In this document: one piece after another, positions 6,208 to 40,947 of the stretch
Numbering within the stretch: the first letter of the stretch is position 1
Layout of the letters: each line of letters opens with the position of its first letter
UHGV virus genome: UHGV-1858859
From: a virus
Reading direction: 5' to 3' (one strand)
Length of the DNA: 44,515 nucleotides
The notes under the pieces: generated by a model
The model's input: the letters and a program-made list of their open reading frames with translations, nothing else
The model's database searches: none
Told to the model about the DNA's origin: nothing
Position numbers and translations under genes: made by a program

Positions 6208-6702
6208 TTAGCGGCGTCTCTTGACGCCGTGGTTTTCATGAAATCCGTAAGCAGCTTCTGCGGCTTTACGAACGGCAACCGCCTCTTCTAATGCGCAAAA
6301 GAATCCAAGGTTAATGTGTTCGCCGTCAACACGAATAGTTGCGCGCCACTTCGATACATCCTTTCGCCAATACACGCCGGTGTATCCCGACTTATTATTA
6401 GTTAATAGCGCCCTGTTTCTGGAGTTACCTTTATTATTCGTTTTCCTTAAATTCTCTATCCTATCGTCCGCTCTGTTGTGATTGATGTGGTCTATTTGGT
6501 CGCCTTTATTTAATTTATCGGTTGGATTATGCATCTCCCATACGATATGACTAACTTTGTACTTTTTACCCAAACAGCTAACATATCGGTATCCGTTTTT
6601 GTTCACAGAACCTGCAACTATCCCCTCGGGCTTGTTCTTGCAAGGCTTATTAACCCAGTAAAGAACTCCTGAATCGTACCGGAAAACACTATACCAATTC
6701 AT
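6208..6702 (-). CDS. HNH homing endonuclease with AP2 DNA-binding domain
   Basis: HNH motif GDQIDHINHNRADDRIENLR, then AP2-like segment SGYTGVYWRKDVSKWRATIRVDGEHINLGFF. Confidence 0.8.
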   Translation of the reverse strand: MNWYSVFRYDSGVLYWVNKPCKNKPEGIVAGSVNKNGYRYVSCLGKKYKVSHIVWEMHNPTDKLNKGDQIDHINHNRADDRIENLRKTNNKGNSRNRALLTNNKSGYTGVYWRKDVSKWRATIRVDGEHINLGFFCALEEAVAVRKAAEAAYGFHENHGVKRRR

Positions 6703-8858: not shown

Positions 8859-8990
8859 TCATTCCAGCACCCACAGATAAATCGCGATGAACATACCTAA
8901 TACGGCGACCATCATGCCGTATTGGCCCTCGTGACAGTAGACACCGGCGGCAAATCCCGCCAGTACCGCGATAATCAGTTTACTTGGCAT
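8859..8990 (-). CDS. small hydrophobic protein (43 aa)
   Basis: MPSKLIIAVLAGFAAGVYCHEGQYGMMVAVLGMFIAIYLWVLE; its ATG overlaps the polymerase stop codon. Confidence 0.3.
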   Translation of the reverse strand: MPSKLIIAVLAGFAAGVYCHEGQYGMMVAVLGMFIAIYLWVLE

Positions 8991-11900
8991 AACGCTTCAT
9001 CTCCGCACCTTCCGCGACAAGAGGGAAGCCTTCTGCCCACTCAGGCAACGCGCACATTAATTTTTCCAGCTCAGGCACCGTGTAATCCGGCGTATCTGGA
9101 GTTTCACATACCAGTTCATCGTGTACCGAAAGCACGATGGGATACCCGCCACCCTCAACATTAATCATCGCATATGCGAGTAAATCACGGCACAGCGCCT
9201 GAACAATGTTTTCGCAGGCTTTGCCGCCGTGTGTGTACAGGGTAGTCCATTGGCGGGTTAACTGGTTTTCACCTTGGTACTTGATTCGCACATTCGTGTT
9301 TACCCGTCCGTCTTCGTCTGTTTCTTTTGTCACGCTAACGCCGATTCCTGGATACGAGAGGATACGGCCCGACGGCAACTCCATACACAACCACCAACCG
9401 GGAACCTTCCTGCCGGATGAATCGAATTCTACCGTACGCCATATGCGGATAGCCCTTTCCCTGTTCCTGCGCAAGTGTGCTCCCGCCCAAAATTCACGAC
9501 CAGGATTGCGAACAGCGGCTAAAATTCCGTCTTTAAGGTCGCGCCAGAACGCTACTGTTTCCGGGTGTGACTCACGCCACATACGCTTGATTGCGTCACA
9601 GGTACGCCATACTTTCTTATCAAGAATGTACGATGGTCTGTCATCCTTTTCACCAGGATGCGGTGGTCGCTTGGCTTCCTGAATACGCGCCCATTCATAA
9701 CCACGTGCAGTAGCCGCCCATATATGATCAGGGAAAGTACCGTCCATTGTTTTTGCCATCTCGATAAGGTCAAGACCTAAGTTTTTGGCGAACGTAACGA
9801 ACGCTCCGACGCCGCCCTCGTAGCCGAGACCGAGCTCGCAGTTATGCGCCACAAGAAAGCCAGAGTCGGAAGCTATGAGAAAACGGTTGCCGTCGTCCAC
9901 ATCAATCAGGTCGTAAACCGGCTCGCAGTAGGTTAATTTCCCGTTCAAGCTCAGCAATGCGGGCAACGGCAGCATCGTACTTTCGTTGAAGCTCAGGTAT
10001 CCGCCGTCTGTTACGGCAGTTTTCCGAACGGCTGACAAACCGAATGTTTCCAGGCTCGTAGTTACCGTCTGTGTCGATTCTGTCCATTTCGAGGTTTGGG
10101 TCATCCCAGCCTTCCAGAGTTTGAACATATCTAAGAAACGACCTTTTATCGGTCCTCCACTGGTCACACACCGTGATACCCCTTGCCCCATAGTTTTTAT
10201 AACCCTTATCTCTGGGGCTTGTTGTTCGCACGATTGCCGCCGACAACCGGTTGAGCAATCGCGTTCTGTGCGCGTCATCTGGCATTGCGTCTTCGTAGCA
10301 GAAATATTGTTTACGATATCTTTTTGTCGCTTCAAGCGCGCAGCGGTTGCATTGAGTGGTTTTACCCGCTCTGACATTGTCATAATAGACCCGCCCTGGC
10401 ATCTCCCCACAATCACATTGGGCGAGTAGTTGTCTTTGGCCTTGTCGTTTAGATAGCTCACGTAGGATAACCAGGCGACCCCACCTCTCCCCAGGGCGAG
10501 GCCCATCATATATTTGTTTGAAACGAGTTGCTTTGCCGCCTTCCAGGAATGCGTCAAGATTTTGTGGTCTTCGGTCATTAGAACCCCGTCCACATTTATC
10601 ACTGGTTTCCACCCCATAAGGTGCGCGCCTTTTGTATTCACCCATTTTTCGCCACTCCATACTTTATCTGTTGGTGTAACCGCCATAATATCCTTAAATC
10701 CGCCATCGGTCAAAACTTGGGTATGACGGTGAAGGCAAGCCTTACCTATCTGGCGTAAGTCTTTACGTTCTTTCTTAATATCGTCGGGGTCCATGCCAAA
10801 CATCTTGCCCGCGGTTACACAGTAAATATCCAGTCCGGCGCGGAACGTATCGAGCGCGGTTTCTTCACCTGCCAGCCAAGCAAGCCCGCGGCCTTCAACG
10901 TTAGAGTAATCGGCGACGACAAACTTACGCCCGGCTTCCGGTATTATGCAGCTACGCACAGTAGATGCCGTTAGTTTGGCTACATCAAAACGGCGATGGG
11001 CGCGGCCCTTAAGTAACGCCGAAATGCCTTTATCCAGCTCATAATCGTGATAGTAACCGCGTGCCAGGTTCTGCGGCTGGAAGCCTTTACCTGCCCATCG
11101 CAGAGTACGTTTTGCCCCACCGTACTGCAAGCAACCGCGACGGCGGTCGTCCGAAGAGCGGCCCAGCAGCAGCGGGTTATATTTCGTTGACGCGGTGGAC
11201 GCGGCCCCGAGGCGCATTTCGATAATTGTGCGTGCGTCGTCCGGTAAATCATCGTCCGCAAGCAAGTCATTCAGTGTCGACTTCTGCGCGTTGTGAATAC
11301 GGTGTGCAGGCGCAAGTTCACGCAGAATCGGAAGAAAGTCCTTACCAGTAAGCGAGCCGCCGTATTTGCGTTGGGCTTCCTCCTGTAACTGCGCTTTGTG
11401 TTTCTCCACGGCTTCAATAGCGGCTTCCGCCAGTGCAACGTCAACCTTAAACCCGCGGTCGTTGATTAACTGGTCCAGCTCCAGTACACGGTCTTCGAAC
11501 TCAGAGTTACCCCAACGCGGCAGCTTATGGAAGACTTCACGCATCGCAGTGATGTCGCTCACGGCGTACTTGATGAACAGCGCCCACTCGTCCGGGTGTG
11601 TTTCTGCGGTGTAGCGGCGGATTTTGTAATTCTTCGGTGTCGGTTTAGAGAAACGCTGAATCAGCGCCTTGCCGCGTTTATCTTTTGCGTTGTCTGCTGA
11701 CACGCCCAGCACTTCGCACAACGCATCGAGGGAACCCGGCAGCGCGTGACGAAACGCCCAAATCATCGTATCAATGGTGTTGCCTACAGGAATATCAAAG
11801 TCCCAGCAGTGTTTCATGATGAGCCTATCGAACATTGAGCCGTTGTGCCATACCATCTTAATACGACTGTTCGGCTTAACCAGGCGGCGCAGTGCGCGGT

Positions 11901-12078
11901 GCAAATCACCCGGCATGTCGCTGCCGTCGGTGCAATCCCATACCCGCACAGGCTCGTCGTCAAAAGCATATGTGCAGATAAGCACTTCGGTAGTCGGGTG
12001 TTCGGCGTAAGCGTAGGAGCCGACTTTCTTCAAATCGGCTTCGGAGAATGTTTCAAAGTCCAGGTATAAGTAGCTCAT
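8980..12078 (-). CDS. family A DNA polymerase (3'-5' exonuclease + polymerase) interrupted by an in-frame intein
   Basis: Exo I motif LDFETFS near the N-terminus, motif A DYSNVEGRGLAWLAGE, motif B split as RQIGKA / CELGLGYEGG around the intein, motif C LSVHDELV. Start set at ATG 12078 (MSYLYLDFETF) with an AAGGA RBS rather than the track start at 12132. Confidence 0.85.
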   Translation of the reverse strand: MSYLYLDFETFSEADLKKVGSYAYAEHPTTEVLICTYAFDDEPVRVWDCTDGSDMPGDLHRALRRLVKPNSRIKMVWHNGSMFDRLIMKHCWDFDIPVGNTIDTMIWAFRHALPGSLDALCEVLGVSADNAKDKRGKALIQRFSKPTPKNYKIRRYTAETHPDEWALFIKYAVSDITAMREVFHKLPRWGNSEFEDRVLELDQLINDRGFKVDVALAEAAIEAVEKHKAQLQEEAQRKYGGSLTGKDFLPILRELAPAHRIHNAQKSTLNDLLADDDLPDDARTIIEMRLGAASTASTKYNPLLLGRSSDDRRRGCLQYGGAKRTLRWAGKGFQPQNLARGYYHDYELDKGISALLKGRAHRRFDVAKLTASTVRSCIIPEAGRKFVVADYSNVEGRGLAWLAGEETALDTFRAGLDIYCVTAGKMFGMDPDDIKKERKDLRQIGKACLHRHTQVLTDGGFKDIMAVTPTDKVWSGEKWVNTKGAHLMGWKPVINVDGVLMTEDHKILTHSWKAAKQLVSNKYMMGLALGRGGVAWLSYVSYLNDKAKDNYSPNVIVGRCQGGSIMTMSERVKPLNATAARLKRQKDIVNNISATKTQCQMTRTERDCSTGCRRQSCEQQAPEIRVIKTMGQGVSRCVTSGGPIKGRFLDMFKLWKAGMTQTSKWTESTQTVTTSLETFGLSAVRKTAVTDGGYLSFNESTMLPLPALLSLNGKLTYCEPVYDLIDVDDGNRFLIASDSGFLVAHNCELGLGYEGGVGAFVTFAKNLGLDLIEMAKTMDGTFPDHIWAATARGYEWARIQEAKRPPHPGEKDDRPSYILDKKVWRTCDAIKRMWRESHPETVAFWRDLKDGILAAVRNPGREFWAGAHLRRNRERAIRIWRTVEFDSSGRKVPGWWLCMELPSGRILSYPGIGVSVTKETDEDGRVNTNVRIKYQGENQLTRQWTTLYTHGGKACENIVQALCRDLLAYAMINVEGGGYPIVLSVHDELVCETPDTPDYTVPELEKLMCALPEWAEGFPLVAEGAEMKRYAK
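9841..10737 (-). mobile_element. intein (299 codons) inserted in DNA polymerase motif B
   Basis: Block A CLHRHTQVLTDGG right after motif B Lys-Ala; block B GVLMTEDHKILT; blocks F/G VYDLIDVDDGNRFLIASDSGFLVAHN followed by Cys +1. Removing it restores RQIGKACELGLGYEGG. Confidence 0.7.
9902..10660 (-). CDS. HNH endonuclease encoded inside the intein in a different reading frame
   Basis: 252-codon ORF in another frame of the same strand; contains KGYKNYGARGITVCDQW ... EMDRIDTDGNYEPGNIRFVSRSEN, resembling free-standing phage HNH endonucleases. True start uncertain. Confidence 0.6.
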   Translation of the reverse strand: MEWRKMGEYKRRAPYGVETSDKCGRGSNDRRPQNLDAFLEGGKATRFKQIYDGPRPGERWGRLVILRELSKRQGQRQLLAQCDCGEMPGRVYYDNVRAGKTTQCNRCALEATKRYRKQYFCYEDAMPDDAHRTRLLNRLSAAIVRTTSPRDKGYKNYGARGITVCDQWRTDKRSFLRYVQTLEGWDDPNLEMDRIDTDGNYEPGNIRFVSRSENCRNRRRIPELQRKYDAAVARIAELEREINLLRAGLRPD

Positions 12079-12230
12079 TTCTTTTTCCTTAAATCCAGTG
12101 CCTTCGTTTCGCTGAGTCTTATTTTCATACAATCACGACAAATCCACACATGCCTGTACCCGGCGCGGTACTCATCCGCGTACCACGGAAGCGGTTTCAT
12201 ATATCGGTATACGTGCTTACAGAAAAACAT
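12075..12230 (-). CDS. small Cys-containing protein (51 aa)
   Basis: MFFCKHVYRYMKPLPWYADEYRAGYRHVWICRDCMKI...; stop overlaps the polymerase ATG (ATGA); below track cutoff. Confidence 0.3.
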   Translation of the reverse strand: MFFCKHVYRYMKPLPWYADEYRAGYRHVWICRDCMKIRLSETKALDLRKKK

Positions 12231-18892: not shown

Positions 18893-18921
18893 TTGCACAC
18901 CCCAACATAATAGGATACTAT
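18893..18921 (+). promoter_or_regulatory. sigma70-like promoter TTGCAC-N17-TACTAT with embedded palindrome
   Basis: ttgcac accccaacataatagga tactat; motif ATAATAG-gata-CTATTCA at 18907-18924; a 36-bp block is repeated as an exact inverted copy at 40388-40423. Confidence 0.65.
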
Positions 18922-30983: not shown

Positions 30984-31014
30984 AAGGCCCCATAATGGGG
31001 CCTTAGTTTTATTT
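30984..31014. terminator. bidirectional rho-independent terminator
   Basis: aaggcccc-ataat-ggggcctt hairpin with T-runs on both strands (agttttattt on plus, ttttatcatc on minus); lies between convergent genes. Confidence 0.6.
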
Positions 31015-31530
31015 AAATCGCGCAGGCATTAACACCATAAAGGCCGTGTTTGAAAATTGTATTTTGCATCCTCTGGTTTGGTCCTGGAAATCGAAACGAG
31101 CAATTTCATTTTTGTATGCCTTAGAAATCTTGTACGCGTCTGCCAAATAGCGCAGAGTGAACCCTATACTGTCGACAACACCCGGTGTGATGTGCGCCAC
31201 GCGTCTCCAGTCAGGAAAGTTTCCTTCTACAACATCTACCGGAAGTGTACATATAAGCGCACGATTATCGTCATAGAAAGATACACTGCCGTTGTCGTGG
31301 TTTACCTCTGCGTAGTTAAATTTAGAAGGCTCTCTCCCTTTGATGTCTATGAGAGTCCCTTTCTCAACGTTGGTCTTCACATTGTCGCAGAACAATCTAT
31401 GACCGTCCGTAGACACTATCAATCCTTCAGGGTCTATGTAAAAAGCGTTCAAATAGTAGCGAACATCATTTTTAGCCCTGCATATTTTCGCCCCTACATA
31501 CGCAGGGAAAGTAATTACTGTAGTAACCAT
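31009..31530 (-). CDS. truncated DnaN (DNA polymerase III beta sliding clamp)-like protein
   Basis: DVRYYLNAFYIDPEGLIVSTDGHRLF, VVEGNFPDWRRV and C-terminal AFMVLMPARF match E. coli DnaN segments (DVRYYLNGMLFE...ATDGHRLAV, VDGRFPDYRRV, AYVVMPMRL) recalled from memory; only 173 aa against 366; AGGAG RBS and own promoter. Confidence 0.6.
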   Translation of the reverse strand: MVTTVITFPAYVGAKICRAKNDVRYYLNAFYIDPEGLIVSTDGHRLFCDNVKTNVEKGTLIDIKGREPSKFNYAEVNHDNGSVSFYDDNRALICTLPVDVVEGNFPDWRRVAHITPGVVDSIGFTLRYLADAYKISKAYKNEIARFDFQDQTRGCKIQFSNTAFMVLMPARFK

Positions 31531-31556
31531 TTCTCATCTCCTGTTTAAGTTAACTG

Positions 31557-31585
31557 AATAGTACCCTATTATGTTGGTGCGCGCA
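31557..31585 (-). promoter_or_regulatory. sigma70-like promoter TTGCGC-N17-TACTAT with embedded palindrome
   Basis: Minus-strand reading ttgcgc gcaccaacataataggg tactat, with ATAATAG-ggta-CTATTCA. Confidence 0.6.
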
Positions 31586-31861
31586 AACTATTTATTTACG
31601 TATTCCAGTTATTCCACTCAATTGTAAACGTTGGAATAAACTATTCGAATAGTTGACTTTTCACTGAAAATATGATAAGCTCCACCTGAGCTTGTGAAGT
31701 ATGAGCAAGCGACCGCGGCGCGGGCAGGTAACGGAGCGGGACGTAAGTCCTGAGTGTAGTTACGCTGACGCGTTCGGAAGGGCCATACTCTATTGCTTGT
31801 GTAAAAAGTAACTGGTTTACTGAGATTACGCCGTTTCTATGTTTAAATGATAAGGACTAGC

Positions 31862-37569: not shown

Positions 37570-38736
37570 ATGGCTACAACTCCTTTTAAGGGCGCGAATA
37601 CAGCGCAATTCTATGTGGCGGAAGTGACCCCGGGCGTAACCCCAGACAACCCTGTCTGGTCGCCGCTGCGCAATACGGGCGGTGTTCCTGCGGTAACCCG
37701 CGATGCGCTGACCTCCAACGAACTCGACGGCAGCCGAGAAACTACATCCATCCGAACCGGCAACAAACAGGTTAGCGGGGAGTACGCCATCGAACTTAGC
37801 TCCCGTAGCCAGGATGATTTCCTCGCGGGTGCTATGACTTCTACGTGGCAAGCTGGGGTAGAGATTACGGGTGCAGAAATTACGGTCGCTCCAGCAGGTA
37901 AAACATTCACCCGCGCTGCTGGTAGCTTCATTACTGACGGTGTAGAAGTTGGCGACCTGATTGCGTTCACCGGCTTAACCAGCGACAACGCAAAACCGTT
38001 TATCGTGACCGAGGTTTCTGCTCTTGTAGTTACGGGTTCTGGCATTCAACACACGCTGACAGCAGAGACTGTAACCACCGGCGCTAAAACAGGCGATAAA
38101 TTGGAAACCGGTAACGCATGTAAGACGTTCTCCATCCTGACATGGTTCAAAGGACAGTGCGGGAACCCTGACGCGTACATGCTGACCAAAGGCGTGGAAA
38201 TCTCCGGTTTCACCATTGAACAGGCCGTAAACGCGATGGTGACAGGCAGCTTCCCGTTCATCGGTCTGAGTCAGGAAATTCTTTCTGCACGGCCAGCAGG
38301 TTCTGATTTCTCTCAGGTGACGTTTACCGATGAGCCGTTCTCATCCGTAGATGTGTCTGTGTTCGACGGTTCTACGCCGTTGCGTTGCGATACTCTGACC
38401 ATCACCAACGACAACGGTGCTTCCGCACAGTTCGAACTCGGCAACAGTAGTGTTGCGTTCGTGGAACGTGGCCGCGCAGCTAACACATTCTCCATCTCTG
38501 GTAAGCTGTACGACATGGCGATGATTCAGAAGTTTATCAACGAACAGCAGGTAGAGATTAACTCTATTCTGGCGGGGGTAAACGGGGCTATGTCTTTCAG
38601 CCTGAAACGTGCCGAGTTGACCGCAGTTACGCCAGAAATATCTGGCCCAGAATCAATCACCCAGAGCATAGAGGGACAGTCCACCGGCAATCAGTACCAG
38701 TCATCTATCGTAATTCAACGTATCACCTACGCATAA
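37570..38736 (+). CDS. major tail protein
   Basis: 388 aa, Thr/Gly/Val-rich, followed by a strong terminator and located before the chaperone and tape measure genes. Confidence 0.6.
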   Translation: MATTPFKGANTAQFYVAEVTPGVTPDNPVWSPLRNTGGVPAVTRDALTSNELDGSRETTSIRTGNKQVSGEYAIELSSRSQDDFLAGAMTSTWQAGVEITGAEITVAPAGKTFTRAAGSFITDGVEVGDLIAFTGLTSDNAKPFIVTEVSALVVTGSGIQHTLTAETVTTGAKTGDKLETGNACKTFSILTWFKGQCGNPDAYMLTKGVEISGFTIEQAVNAMVTGSFPFIGLSQEILSARPAGSDFSQVTFTDEPFSSVDVSVFDGSTPLRCDTLTITNDNGASAQFELGNSSVAFVERGRAANTFSISGKLYDMAMIQKFINEQQVEINSILAGVNGAMSFSLKRAELTAVTPEISGPESITQSIEGQSTGNQYQSSIVIQRITYA

Positions 38737-38740
38737 AACT

Positions 38741-38766
38741 AAGGCCCCTTTCGGGGCCTTTTTCTT
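38741..38766. terminator. rho-independent terminator (near-identical copy of the one at 6141)
   Basis: aaggcccc-tttc-ggggcctt followed by tttctt; also terminates the convergent minus-strand cassette. Confidence 0.6.
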
Positions 38767-38995
38767 ACTCATCAATATTACTTCGGTACTCCCGTAACTT
38801 CTCCAGACTTTCTATTGCTTCCGCTAAGTCGGTTCCGGTGTCCTTGTGCCCGCGAAGGCCCATACACAGAAGTTTCTTCAACGCGTGCTGTAGTGCCGGG
38901 TCGCGGATGTCGAAGGCGCGTAGCACATCATAAACGTCTACTGTCATTGTGCTGCCGTGAGTATTTGTCATTGTGCGGTTGTATTTTGAAGTCAT
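38765..38995 (-). CDS. hypothetical protein
   Basis: 76-aa ORF, last gene of the minus-strand cassette. Confidence 0.45.
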   Translation of the reverse strand: MTSKYNRTMTNTHGSTMTVDVYDVLRAFDIRDPALQHALKKLLCMGLRGHKDTGTDLAEAIESLEKLREYRSNIDE

Positions 38996-40122
38996 CCCAG
39001 CATCTCCGGTGAAATAGTTAAACGTGCCACCTCCCCATATTCGGCGCTATAAGTTATCACGTTAGCACTACGACCGGACATCCAGCCCCCTCGCGATGCG
39101 TAAGCATCTTTCGCGGCCAGGGTTCGGTGTTGTTCGACTACCATATTGCGGCTTTCTACTAATTTCTGATGATGTAGATGCCCTACATGAGCGTAGCTGT
39201 ATGTGCTTTCTCCAAAAGCCTTACGGAATTTAGAAATCATTACTGACTCTATGGCGTCGAATCTCGCACGGTGTCCATGATGCATGAATAGCGTAGTTTT
39301 CCCGTGCTGGACCATCTTGTATACGTCGGGGGAGGTGTCCACAAATACGCGAGGTTCGTTATCGTACAATGTACAGAACATTTCGGCGAGCCATACAGAG
39401 CCTACAGGGTCGTGGTTACCTTGAACTATTAAGAGTTTGACTGTGTGATGTTTAACAAGCGCCATATCGACAACACGACGCACCATACGAATCATGTAGC
39501 GAACTAGTTTCTGATAGCGAGTATCGGCGTCTAACACATGACGCGACTCAGGGGTAACGGCATCAAGACTATCGAAGTGCGCGAAGTCTCCTAGCAGGTT
39601 AATAACTCCTGTTCCCGCGTCTGGTGCTTTCTGGAACGCTGCGTCAAACCAACGGGAGAACAGGTCTTCCGCAATCTTCATGTCCCAGTCGTCGCCGCTC
39701 TCGTCAGCCCAGGCCAGCATACCGAGATGGAAATCAGACACAGTGTAAAGATTGAGTAGTTTATCGTCGCGTTTGGCGCGAACGGCTTTAACAGGAGCAA
39801 CGGGGGTAATCTCCGACTTCATGCCTTCGATTACGGCCTTCATTAACTCGACCTGACGTTCTGCGTCAGTGTCGGTCTTAACCCATTGCAGTTTAGTGTT
39901 GCCGAACTCGTCCACCAGAGACGACGTACCTTTAATCTTGTAGCCGTCAGGCACAAGGTGACTAACGTCGCGACCGTGGCCTACACCTTTCTTAGCCAGC
40001 TTCGCTTTACGGATACGGATAACGCGGTCTGAGATTCCGTACTTACGTGCGATATCAATAATTTTTGTTCCGGCGTTCAATTCTTCCCGTAACTGTTCGT
40101 CGGTTATTTTCTTATGAGCCAT
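38992..40122 (-). CDS. calcineurin-like metallophosphoesterase with N-terminal HTH
   Basis: Metallophosphatase motifs GDFAHFD, GNHD, GHLHH; N-terminal HTH-like segment KIIDIARKYGISDRVIRIRKAK. Confidence 0.7.
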   Translation of the reverse strand: MAHKKITDEQLREELNAGTKIIDIARKYGISDRVIRIRKAKLAKKGVGHGRDVSHLVPDGYKIKGTSSLVDEFGNTKLQWVKTDTDAERQVELMKAVIEGMKSEITPVAPVKAVRAKRDDKLLNLYTVSDFHLGMLAWADESGDDWDMKIAEDLFSRWFDAAFQKAPDAGTGVINLLGDFAHFDSLDAVTPESRHVLDADTRYQKLVRYMIRMVRRVVDMALVKHHTVKLLIVQGNHDPVGSVWLAEMFCTLYDNEPRVFVDTSPDVYKMVQHGKTTLFMHHGHRARFDAIESVMISKFRKAFGESTYSYAHVGHLHHQKLVESRNMVVEQHRTLAAKDAYASRGGWMSGRSANVITYSAEYGEVARLTISPEMLG

Positions 40123-40161
40123 GCTTTACTTCCTCGTGTTTAGGATTTGTCCTATACTAGC

Positions 40162-40353
40162 TCACTTCTCTTTGACATTCGAGTTGCACGCCCAGATTAA
40201 AATAAATACCCACGGCAGCAGAACCCAACCGAGAAACAGATTAGCCATGAATATCGCTAATTTAGCTTTATGGTTGCGCATATGCGCCACGAGAAATGGG
40301 ATAAAATAAACTAAAACGATAATGATTAAGAAGAACATAGTAATACCTGTCAT
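40162..40353 (-). CDS. superinfection-immunity-like small membrane protein
   Basis: YFIPFLVAHMRNHKAKLAIFMANLFLGWVLLPWVFILIWA resembles the Imm_superinfect family signature (from memory); AGGAG RBS. Confidence 0.5.
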   Translation of the reverse strand: MTGITMFFLIIIVLVYFIPFLVAHMRNHKAKLAIFMANLFLGWVLLPWVFILIWACNSNVKEK

Positions 40354-40394
40354 GGGGTAGCTCCTGTTTGAGTTAACATTGTTGGTGTAAGTGA

Positions 40395-40423
40395 ATAGTA
40401 TCCTATTATGTTGGGGTGTGCAA
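40395..40423 (-). promoter_or_regulatory. sigma70-like promoter TTGCAC-N17-TACTAT, exact inverted copy of the 18893 promoter block
   Basis: Minus-strand reading cttgcacaccccaacataataggatactattcactt is identical over 36 nt to plus strand 18892-18927. Confidence 0.65.
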
Positions 40424-40530
40424 GTAATGTGTTAGAATTATTTTGCGCCTAGTGTCGCACACGAAAAGCGGGTGGTTCCCGTCTGGCGCATTAACCTTAA
40501 CCAGTAACCTCTTAACCAAAGGATTAAAGA

Positions 40531-40947
40531 ATGAAACTTTCTGATTTTTATTACGAAGCTGAGGCAGAAAAAGGCGCCCGTATGCCAATACCACTGAAAG
40601 ACGGCACCGATTCAGGGGAGTGGCTGAACGTTGTTTCACCGGAGGCAGACGTTGCCGTTAAAGCTATGAGGGCGTTTACACTTGCGTACCGCGCGGCATT
40701 AGGTAAATTGAAACCGCTTCGTGATAAATGCGAGGAACTGAAAGATTTCTCGGAATACAATATTAAGATGGAAGACGCCGCGACGGACCTTAACCGCCAG
40801 TTAGCACTTGAACTGGTTAACGGTTGGAGTCTCGACGATGAATTTAATAAAGAGAACCTGAACACTCTTTTCTCACAATATAAACGCCTCGCTGAACACG
40901 TTGTTGTTTTCCACAACGAACAGCTTCACCAATTGCAGGAAAAGTAG
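40531..40947 (+). CDS. tail assembly chaperone (G-like)
   Basis: 138-aa acidic protein immediately upstream of the tape measure gene; -1 frame ORF continues past its stop. Confidence 0.55.
   Translation: MKLSDFYYEAEAEKGARMPIPLKDGTDSGEWLNVVSPEADVAVKAMRAFTLAYRAALGKLKPLRDKCEELKDFSEYNIKMEDAATDLNRQLALELVNGWSLDDEFNKENLNTLFSQYKRLAEHVVVFHNEQLHQLQEK

What the first reader, a model, noticed from the sequence alone, without database searches (positions are those of the whole stretch)
38765..40423. Minus-strand cassette in the tail module: Imm-like membrane protein plus HTH-metallophosphoesterase
Between the major tail gene and the tail chaperone genes, an antisense unit carries its own promoter (40395-40423), a 63-aa membrane protein resembling superinfection immunity proteins, a 376-aa protein combining an N-terminal HTH with calcineurin-like phosphoesterase motifs (GDFAHFD, GNHD, GHLHH), and a 76-aa ORF, ending at the bidirectional terminator at 38741-38766. 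The position and orientation are those of an accessory (moron) insertion, suggesting superinfection exclusion or host takeover; the phosphoesterase could act on a nucleotide signal or on DNA ends.
Basis: partly seen in the sequence, partly recalled or inferred. Interest (0 to 1): 0.7.

Follow-up and report, generated by a model that had tools for sequence, protein, structure and literature searches.

The report
Conserved antisense island in tail operon
A three-gene unit reading backwards inside a coliphage's tail genes is real and has its own promoter and terminator, but it is already annotated in related phages, and its main gene is an old, very widespread phage enzyme (the phage T1 ST16 family) that most likely cuts DNA.

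Summary
The window is a Kagunavirus-type (Guernseyvirinae) siphophage. The minus-strand unit exists as described: promoter 40395-40423, Imm-like gene 40162-40353, HTH-metallophosphoesterase (MPE) 38992-40122, 76-aa ORF 38765-38995, bidirectional terminator 38741-38760. A generic scan missed the promoter. It is nevertheless one of four copies of a 30-nt element (0.01 expected) that also heads the small-ORF block, and it is conserved in relatives.

The Imm-like protein passes Pfam's Imm_superinfect threshold and has two hydrophobic spans. The MPE has all five metal-binding motifs, invariant across the family. Its model is nearest the DNA-nuclease branch (PolD DP1, Mre11/SbcD).

The "moron" reading holds only in part. 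The island is a lineage-specific insertion into a tail operon that is contiguous in distant relatives, and its accessory content varies. The MPE, however, is a full-length homologue of T1 ST16, occurs in about 2,000 phage records, appears near-universal in Guernseyvirinae, and has native base composition.

My best reading is an HTH-tethered DNA phosphodiesterase involved in DNA breakdown and nucleotide salvage. The cassette is already annotated in public records, so this is of modest interest. No experiment has addressed the function of the HTH-MPE family.

The parts
40395..40423 (-). Promoter of the island: -35 TTGCAC (40418-40423), 17-nt spacer, -10 TACTAT (40395-40400). It overlaps the palindrome AATAGGATACTATT (40394-40407).
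   Evidence: One of four copies of a 30-nt composite element (18893+, 20463+, 31586-, 40423-); 0.01 expected by chance. Conserved in relatives. Not listed by the generic sigma-70 scan.
40361..40365 (-). Shine-Dalgarno AGGAG, 7 nt upstream of the Imm ATG. It lies within a 5'UTR (gttaacTYaaacaggag) shared with the second antisense island at 31557(-).
   Evidence: Read directly from the sequence.
40162..40353 (-). 63-aa two-span membrane protein of the Imm_superinfect family; candidate superinfection-exclusion factor.
   Evidence: Pfam PF14373 7.7e-14, above its cut-off. phrog_1039 2.5e-23. Hydropathy profile. Found in 371 phage records, with only residues 23-63 conserved.
39988..40122 (-). N-terminal helix-turn-helix region (residues 1-45) of the 376-aa protein.
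   Evidence: AF2 helices 8-16, 21-28 and 32-45. Weak HTH_Tnp_1 and LrpA-type matches. Homologues hit HTH_8, HTH_30, HTH_23, Sigma70_r4 and HTH_1.
39769..39987 (-). Linker region (residues 46-118): a beta-hairpin with invariant W80 and conserved K82-T83, followed by one helix.
   Evidence: AF2 strands 61-70 and 76-85, helix 87-101, pLDDT 63-72. W80 is invariant in both alignments.
38992..39768 (-). Metallophosphoesterase catalytic domain (residues 119-376, plus the stop codon) with a complete dinuclear-metal site.
38765..38995 (-). 76-aa protein of unknown function. Its start overlaps the MPE stop codon (ATGA).
   Evidence: phrog_2452 2.4e-36. Found in 774 phage records. 91% identical in Jerseyvirus Ent1. 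It forms the C-terminal domain of longer proteins in Acinetobacter phage and Bas79. No match in Pfam, PDB, NCBIfam or PADLOC.
38741..38760 (.). Bidirectional intrinsic terminator (8-bp stem, 6 G-C pairs) shared by the tail-tube gene (+) and the island (-).
   Evidence: Terminator scan on both strands.
40373..40401 (+). Flanking feature, not part of the unit: a divergent promoter-like site (TTAACA-17-TAGTAT) that would restart tail-chaperone and tape-measure transcription. It overlaps the same palindrome.
   Evidence: Promoter scan, 9 of 12 positions. The + strand reads tgAATAGTATCCTATTATGT, matching the 'phage promoter' motif reported for fBC-Eco01.

Best explanation
The region is an autonomous transcription unit fixed inside the Guernseyvirinae tail operon. 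A sigma-70-type promoter, of the same sequence class as those heading the phage's small-ORF block (presumed early), drives three genes that end at a terminator shared with the tail-tube gene.

Gene 1 is a two-span inner-membrane protein of the T4 Imm family. It most likely protects the infected cell against secondary infection by related phages.

Gene 2 is the main cargo. It belongs to the phage T1 ST16 / PHROG 704 family: an N-terminal HTH tethers a dinuclear-metal phosphodiesterase of the Mre11/SbcD/DP1-like branch to DNA. I think it acts as a stand-alone DNA nuclease in DNA metabolism. The most probable role is breaking down DNA, host DNA above all, to feed nucleotide salvage and silence the host, as shown for the unrelated mycobacteriophage MPE Gp48.

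Gene 3 is a small helical protein, common among phage early genes, whose role is unknown.

Shown here: the anatomy, the promoter family, the conservation, the intact active site and the fold neighbourhood. Inferred: the timing, DNA as substrate, and the biological role.
For: Anatomy and promoter family.

The second antisense island (31009-31530) shares the promoter and 5'UTR and also encodes a DNA-metabolism protein (phrog_3007 3.6e-36; clamp-like hits).

Catalytic residues are invariant in members only 26-30% identical to the window protein.

An HTH is present in every architecture examined, sometimes doubled.

Outside Guernseyvirinae the gene sits with DNA-metabolism genes: helicase and Dam in T1 and other Drexlerviridae, and DNA polymerase, exonuclease and endonuclease in the podovirus altidsur.

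It is repeatedly linked to nucleotide enzymes. MPE, HAD_PNKP phosphatase and dNMP kinase occur together in Kagunavirus UTI89UKE1 and in Yersinia phage YenM_39, with the kinases 47% identical at 1e-42. A dATP/dGTP-diphosphohydrolase-like gene follows in altidsur and a dNMP phosphatase in Ruegeria phage V18.

Precedent: an early-expressed phage MPE with DNA-nuclease activity degrades host DNA and counters host defence (PMC12287305).

Imm.
Against: No experiment addresses this family.

No Rad50/SbcC or DP2 partner is encoded, so the known nuclease complexes are not reproduced.

The phage already has a PD-(D/E)XK/DUF2800 exonuclease, and its polymerase shows a weak 3'-5' exonuclease match.

Early timing is inferred from promoter similarity alone. 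The only transcriptome study placed the Imm gene in a 'late' class together with DNA polymerase and the methylases, in a long multi-cycle design.

The family also occurs in temperate phages and prophages, where indiscriminate host-DNA destruction would have to be tightly controlled.
Confidence: 0.5

Rival explanations
1. The HTH-MPE processes the phage's own replication or recombination intermediates. It would trim ends, hairpins or mismatched 3' termini, like Mre11/SbcD or the DP1 proofreader, rather than attacking host DNA.
For: The top structural neighbours are exactly these enzymes. The gene sits next to helicase, Dam, DNA polymerase, exonuclease and endonuclease genes in T1, Webervirus and altidsur. 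It is also conserved in temperate phages.
Against: There is no SMC-type ATPase or DP2 partner. The phage has its own exonuclease plus annealing-protein pair and a polymerase with a weak exonuclease-domain match. The linkage to a dNMP kinase, phosphatases and a dNTP diphosphohydrolase-like gene fits nucleotide turnover better.
Confidence: 0.22
2. The MPE is a counter-defence phosphodiesterase that destroys nucleotide immune signals (cyclic mono-, di- or oligonucleotides, or 2'-5'-linked products).
For: The cyclic-nucleotide phosphodiesterases Rv0805/Icc and GpdQ are only slightly weaker structural matches. The unit sits next to an exclusion gene under a presumed early promoter.
Against: An obligatory DNA-binding HTH is unexplained by this role. 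The gene's neighbours are DNA and nucleotide-pool enzymes, not known anti-defence genes. PADLOC gave no match. No literature link was found.
Confidence: 0.1
3. The MPE is an end-healing enzyme. With the HAD 3'-phosphatase and a kinase, it would repair nucleic-acid ends (2',3'-cyclic or 3'-phosphate) left by host nucleases.
For: A HAD_PNKP phosphatase domain lies directly downstream in three lineages, and in UTI89UKE1 its start overlaps the MPE stop codon. From general knowledge, bacterial Pnkp uses an MPE-fold healing domain.
Against: The linked kinase is a dNMP kinase (phrog_139), not a polynucleotide kinase. No ligase is nearby. The window phage itself has neither the phosphatase nor the kinase in the island.
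Confidence: 0.08
4. The protein is mainly a transcription regulator: the HTH does the work and the MPE domain senses or modulates. It might act on the palindromic AATAG-N4-CTATT promoters.
For: The HTH is conserved. The SO-1 record notes 'putative transcriptional regulator'. There is a weak phrog_836 'late transcriptional activator' match at 1e-3. The palindrome overlaps about 10 promoters, including the island's own.
Against: All catalytic residues are invariant across the family. T1 has the protein with a similar HTH but no enrichment of the palindrome (1 match against 1.7 expected), whereas Bas74 has 13 against 1.4.
Confidence: 0.05
5. The whole cassette is a recently acquired moron with purely accessory functions.
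For: It has its own promoter and terminator, is antisense, and interrupts an otherwise contiguous operon. The Imm gene and other extras vary among relatives.
Against: The MPE and the 76-aa gene are present across Kagunavirus, Jerseyvirus and Cornellvirus (FSL SP-101) records at the same place. Composition equals the genome mean. The MPE family is far older than the subfamily.
Confidence: 0.05

Closest known systems
The same island as annotated in other Guernseyvirinae (for example Bas74_0021-0023; fFiEco03 FE3_020-023; Ent1 SEP1_gp21-24; fBC-Eco01 Gp27c and Gp28c)
   Same: Same position between tail tube and chaperones, same strand and same gene order. Proteins are 85-100% identical. Records annotate them as 'superinfection immunity protein' and as 'metallophosphoesterase', 'DNA repair exonuclease' or 'DNA polymerase II small subunit'.
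   Different: Nothing essential differs. The accessory content varies: HNH endonuclease, Rha/ANT protein, HAD phosphatase plus dNMP kinase, and extra small ORFs. The published names are homology labels, not tested functions.
Phage T1 ST16 / PHROG 704 ('DNA repair exonuclease')
   Same: Full-length homologue, 377 aa against 376 aa, 44% identity, with the same HTH, hairpin and MPE architecture.
   Different: In T1 the gene lies on the forward strand after helicase and Dam and before HNH and the lysis genes, not in the tail module. Its function is uncharacterised as well.
Mre11/SbcD and the PolD DP1 exonuclease (nuclease branch of the MPE superfamily)
   Same: Best structural matches. Same five metal-binding motifs, including the GDxxH form of motif II.
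   Different: Only 10-16% identity. No Rad50/SbcC or DP2 partner and no evident capping or OB domain. An N-terminal HTH is present instead.
Mycobacteriophage A10ZJ24 Gp48 (cluster A MPE)
   Same: A phage MPE with five motifs, expressed early. Its phosphodiesterase and DNA-nuclease activity degrades host DNA and counters defence (PMC12287305). It is the only functional precedent I found for a stand-alone phage MPE.
   Different: Going by the residue numbers given in the paper (D10, D41, H175), its catalytic domain starts at the N-terminus, with no HTH before it. Mycobacterium phages were not among the organisms listed for the tblastn hits. The relation is analogy within the superfamily, not family membership.
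T4 Imm (Pfam Imm_superinfect, PF14373)
   Same: A small two-span membrane protein that matches the family model above its cut-off.
   Different: Shorter, by my recollection (63 aa against about 83 in T4). Only the C-terminal 40 residues are conserved even within Guernseyvirinae. Blocking of DNA entry is untested here.

Membership tests
Imm_superinfect (T4 Imm-type superinfection immunity protein) | Match to the family profile above the curated threshold | tested here: met
   PF14373, 51.8 bits against a cut-off of 27.9, E 7.7e-14, covering profile positions 1-42 of 42. phrog_1039 2.5e-23.
Imm_superinfect (T4 Imm-type superinfection immunity protein) | Small protein with two membrane-spanning helices | tested here: met
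   Hydropathy peaks at residues about 5-24 and 32-56, with the basic loop HMRNHKAK between them.
Imm_superinfect (T4 Imm-type superinfection immunity protein) | Blocks genome entry of superinfecting phage | not testable with these tools
   Needs expression in the host and plating or DNA-entry assays.
Calcineurin-like metallophosphoesterase superfamily | Five metal-binding motifs: DxH, GDxxD/H, GNH[D/E], H, GHxH | tested here: met
   D130-x-H132, G178-D179-xx-H182, G235-N236-H237-D238, H282 and H315-x-H317 are invariant or nearly so in 10 and in 66 sequences.
Calcineurin-like metallophosphoesterase superfamily | Pfam Metallophos or Metallophos_2 above the gathering score | tested here: not met
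   22.4 bits against 27 and 18.4 against 21.5. Some homologues do pass (P0300 at 25.1).
Calcineurin-like metallophosphoesterase superfamily | The MPE beta-sandwich fold | tested here: met
Mre11/SbcD nuclease family | Nuclease-type catalytic core (GDxxH in motif II; closest fold) | tested here: met
Mre11/SbcD nuclease family | Partner SMC-type ATPase (Rad50/SbcC) encoded with it | tested here: not met
   The annotated genome of close relative Bas74 has no such gene, and none turned up among the window's replication ORFs.
Mre11/SbcD nuclease family | C-terminal capping domain | tested here: inconclusive
PolD DP1 (B-subunit) family | PDE domain preceded by an OB fold, working with a DP2 catalytic subunit | tested here: not met
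Phage T1 ST16 / PHROG 704 family | Full-length homology with the HTH plus MPE architecture | tested here: met
   phrog_704 7.8e-161 over residues 4-375. T1 ST16 44% identity over 377 aa. 1,957 of 2,013 phage records cover at least 80% of the query.
Moron (autonomous accessory insertion) | Own promoter and terminator, inserted between genes of a conserved operon | tested here: met
   (promoter and terminator). (operon contiguous in distant relatives).
Moron (autonomous accessory insertion) | Patchy presence among close relatives | tested here: not met
   For the MPE and the 76-aa gene, Salmonella-phage record counts are 373 and 371 against 359 for the tail tube. These counts are approximate, not a per-genome census. 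Imm is patchier: 263.
Moron (autonomous accessory insertion) | Atypical base composition | tested here: not met
   MPE 0.495 and 76-aa gene 0.489 against 0.505 for the genome. Imm is 0.385 overall but its GC3 is 0.50.

The most novel reading that the evidence does not exclude
The T1 ST16-type HTH-MPE is a DNA-tethered phosphodiesterase whose real substrates are nucleotide immune signals or unusual phosphodiester linkages, not bulk DNA. That would make it a new and extremely widespread class of phage counter-defence enzyme, found in thousands of phages from T1 to roseophages.
Probability: 0.08. Interest if true: 0.7.

Novelty: already known. Interest (0 to 1): 0.27.

Why it matters
The cassette itself is ordinary. 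It is annotated in dozens of public Kagunavirus and Jerseyvirus genomes.

What remains open is the function of its main gene. The gene is conserved in about 2,000 sequenced phages, including the classic phage T1, and no experiment addresses it. If it is the enzyme that breaks down host DNA and feeds nucleotide salvage, it would explain how these small virulent siphophages shut down their hosts. It would also be relevant to choosing therapeutic phages, since Kagunavirus, Jerseyvirus and Webervirus are common candidates.

The promoter family found here gives a concrete handle on the transcription programme of these phages.

Tried and rejected
1. Two of the three word-indexed protein searches returned only relatives at 85-96% identity and added no diversity. 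A third search with the Ruegeria phage homologue supplied the alignment used for AF2.

2. Is the 76-aa protein a universal MPE partner? Rejected. The ORFs that overlap the MPE stop codon in SO-1 and altidsur are unrelated, and UTI89UKE1 lacks the 76-aa gene.

3. Is the 76-aa protein a DUF3310 or MazG-like domain related to dGTP_diPhyd_N? This was a lead from memory. hhalign gave a probability of 0.1%, and Pfam, PDB, NCBIfam and PADLOC gave no matches. The single-sequence AF2 model had pLDDT 64 and was not used.

4. Essentiality data. The CRISPRi-ART paper's phage PTXU04 has a different gene content (for example a 2,198-aa polyvalent protein) and the paper never mentions Kagunavirus or Guernseyvirinae, so it says nothing about this gene.

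5. Timing from the K1B4 transcriptome. It places only the Imm gene in a class ('late', together with DNA polymerase and the methylases). The supplements searched held only host-gene entries for these terms.

6. Does the HTH bind the palindromic promoter motif? This is disfavoured, because T1 has the protein but not the motif.

7. Literature searches for a link between T1 host-DNA degradation, or defence-escape mutants, and this gene found nothing.

8. The AFDB50 fold library was unavailable.

9. The minus-strand ORF 40406-40639 (77 aa, GTG start) overlaps the promoter region and the chaperone gene start, and I regard it as spurious.
Full report
**What the window is.** Megablast of 38600-40600 matches 269 phage records, mostly Escherichia and Salmonella phages of Guernseyvirinae (Kagunavirus, Jerseyvirus). 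The fully annotated relative Bas74 shows the genome plan: terminase, head, neck and tail genes on the + strand, a replication module on the - strand, and a + strand block of many small ORFs followed by lysis genes. The finding lies between the tail-tube gene (37570-38736, +) and the tail chaperone genes (from 40531, +).

**Checking the observation.** The last two overlap by ATGA, and each has a Shine-Dalgarno sequence.

The hairpin at 38741-38760 scores as an intrinsic terminator on both strands.

It turns out to be better supported than a consensus match would be. The palindrome AATAG-N4-CTATT occurs 12 times in the window against 1.3 expected. With flanks aligned, the sites fall into two classes:
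- Class A, TTGCRC-N10-AATAGGnTACTATT. This occurs exactly four times (0.01 expected): 18893(+), 20463(+), 31586(-) and 40423(-). The copies at 18893 and 40423 are identical over all 30 nt.
- Class B, found in the minus-strand replication module. It has a consensus TTGACA, the palindrome in the spacer, and TATAGT as the -10.

The class A element is conserved at the four equivalent places in Bas74 and in the islands of fFiEco03 and UTI89UKE1. The fBC-Eco01 paper reports the same motif as a predicted phage promoter (PMC9825357). So the unit does have its own promoter, of the class that heads the small-ORF block.

I infer early expression from that similarity; it is not shown. The only transcriptome study (K1B4, PMC12645636) put the Imm gene in a different temporal class from the structural genes, including a tail protein, and in the same class as DNA polymerase and the methylases. 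The design was long and multi-cycle and the class was called 'late'.

**The proteins.**
- Gene 1 passes Pfam Imm_superinfect well above threshold and matches phrog_1039. It has two hydrophobic spans separated by a basic loop.
- Gene 2 matches phrog_704 ('DNA repair exonuclease') end to end at 7.8e-161, although the Pfam Metallophos hits are below threshold. In alignments reaching members only 26-30% identical to the window protein, the residues of all five MPE motifs are invariant or nearly so. An AF2 model built on a 66-sequence alignment (pLDDT 84) shows a three-helix HTH (8-45), a beta-hairpin plus helix (61-101, with invariant W80) and an MPE core (119-376).
- Gene 3 belongs to phrog_2452 and is found in 774 phage records. 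It has no match in Pfam, PDB, NCBIfam or PADLOC, and its single-sequence model was too poor to use.

**Is it a moron?** Partly.

For an insertion:
- Distant phages with a homologous tail tube (Vibrio 1.115.B, Stenotrophomonas A1432) have the tube, chaperone and tape-measure genes contiguous.
- The island's content varies among Guernseyvirinae. Ent1 has an HNH endonuclease between the MPE and the 76-aa gene, and a Rha/ANT protein beyond an internal terminator. UTI89UKE1 replaces the 76-aa gene with a HAD_PNKP phosphatase and a dNMP kinase. fFiEco03 has extra small ORFs and an HNH-like gene.

Against an accessory cargo:
- tblastn finds the 376-aa protein in 2,013 phage records, 1,957 of them nearly full length. 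An exhaustive search finds 4,510 clusters at 50% identity.
- Phage T1 ST16 is a 377-aa homologue at 44% identity.
- Among Salmonella phages, record counts for the MPE (373) and the 76-aa gene (371) match or exceed the tail-tube count (359), while Imm is lower at 263. These are record counts, not a per-genome census.
- Composition is native: 0.495 and 0.489 against 0.505, and the low GC of Imm disappears at third codon positions.

So the island is an old, fixed insertion whose constant cargo is a widely conserved phage gene. Only Imm and the extras behave as accessory genes.

**What the MPE most likely does.**
- Motif. A profile of the catalytic domain gives only non-significant PDB hits, but the best are DNA nucleases (P. 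putida nuclease MPE, Mre11). The family's invariant GDxxH aligns with their GDFLH and GDLFH.
- Architecture. Every architecture I inspected keeps one or two N-terminal HTH domains of varying type.
- Context. Outside Guernseyvirinae the gene sits with DNA-metabolism genes. It is repeatedly followed by nucleotide enzymes: a HAD 3'-phosphatase plus dNMP kinase in two lineages, with the kinases 47% identical; a dATP/dGTP diphosphohydrolase-like protein; and a dNMP phosphatase.
- Second island. The other class A antisense island in this window (31009-31530) also encodes a DNA-metabolism protein.
- Missing partners. No Rad50/SbcC or DP2 partner exists, so I do not file the protein under Mre11/SbcD or DP1.
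- Precedent. The one functional precedent for a stand-alone phage MPE is mycobacteriophage A10ZJ24 Gp48. It is expressed early, is a phosphodiesterase and DNA nuclease, degrades host DNA and thereby blunts host defence. It is dispensable on one host and required on another (PMC12287305). It is not a detectable sequence relative, so it supports 'works like', not membership.

Taken together, I favour an HTH-tethered DNA phosphodiesterase in DNA breakdown and nucleotide salvage (about 0.5). Processing of the phage's own DNA intermediates is the main rival. Signal degradation, end healing and pure regulation are less likely. The idea that its HTH recognises the palindromic promoter motif is disfavoured, because T1 has the protein but not the motif.

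**Novelty.** The cassette is annotated in many public records as 'superinfection immunity protein' plus 'metallophosphoesterase', 'DNA repair exonuclease' or 'DNA polymerase II small subunit', and it is mentioned in a genome paper. The window's proteins are 93-100% identical to database entries. The feature is therefore already known at the annotation level. The unresolved part is the biochemical role of the T1 ST16 family, for which I found no experimental work.

**Limits.** Timing, substrate and role are all inferred. The structural discrimination between nuclease and other phosphodiesterase branches is modest. Conservation was judged from record counts. The 76-aa protein remains unexplained.

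Noticed in passing
window 6404-40407: 12 sites, e.g. 8498, 12978, 15441, 15485, 18909, 20479, 31557, 40394: The palindrome AATAG-N4-CTATT is about 10-fold enriched (12 against 1.3 expected) and overlaps the core of two promoter classes. Class A is TTGCRC-N10-palindrome, with the -10 inside the palindrome. Class B is TTGACA, 4 nt, the palindrome, then TATAGT. It looks like the operator of an unidentified phage regulator that controls most of the non-structural transcription. It is enriched in Bas74 as well, but not in T1.
   Followed up: partly
window 31009-31586 (-): A second antisense island lies inside the head-gene region. It has the same class A promoter (31557-31586) and the same 5'UTR as the Imm island. 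It encodes a 173-aa protein (phrog_3007 'RusA-like resolvase' 3.6e-36, with weak beta-clamp similarity).
   Followed up: partly
window 8980-12132 (-), insertion at about 9841-10737; ORF 9902-10660 (-): The family A DNA polymerase ORF is 1,050 aa. Compared with Bas74 it carries an in-frame insertion of about 294 aa, bounded by '...GKAC' and '...VAHN|C' in the manner of an intein. An HNH endonuclease ORF (phrog_374 8.5e-46) lies in a different frame within the same stretch. Whether this is an intein, an intron-like element, or a frameshifted intein endonuclease is unresolved.
   Followed up: partly
L001 5492-5821 (fFiEco03 Imm, annotated as 109 aa); L002 4794-4907 (Bas74_0024, 37 aa): Both annotated features extend over or lie on the conserved island promoter (L001 5724-5753, L002 4782-4811). 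The 109-aa Imm start is probably too far upstream, and the 37-aa ORF is probably not a gene.
   Followed up: partly
L003 (Ent1) against L020 (ABTNLsp11241) and the window: Jerseyvirus phages carry two very different MPE alleles (about 85% and about 55% identity to the window protein). The adjacent 76-aa protein stays about 91% identical. This indicates mosaic exchange within the island.
   Followed up: no
L019 2501-4667; L011 3489-5781: A three-gene block of HTH-MPE, HAD_PNKP-type phosphatase and dNMP kinase is shared by a Kagunavirus and an unrelated Yersinia phage. The gene annotated as 'polynucleotide kinase' there contains only the phosphatase domain.
   Followed up: partly
window 6208-6702 (-): A free-standing HNH endonuclease ORF (Pfam HNH_3 6.2e-9) lies at the end of the replication module. 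HNH genes also flank the MPE gene in Ent1, T1, mar001J1 and Vibrio phage K137, as expected for homing endonucleases next to conserved genes.
   Followed up: no
window 40406-40639 (-): A 77-aa ORF with a GTG start overlaps the divergent promoter region and the start of the chaperone gene. It is most likely spurious.
   Followed up: no
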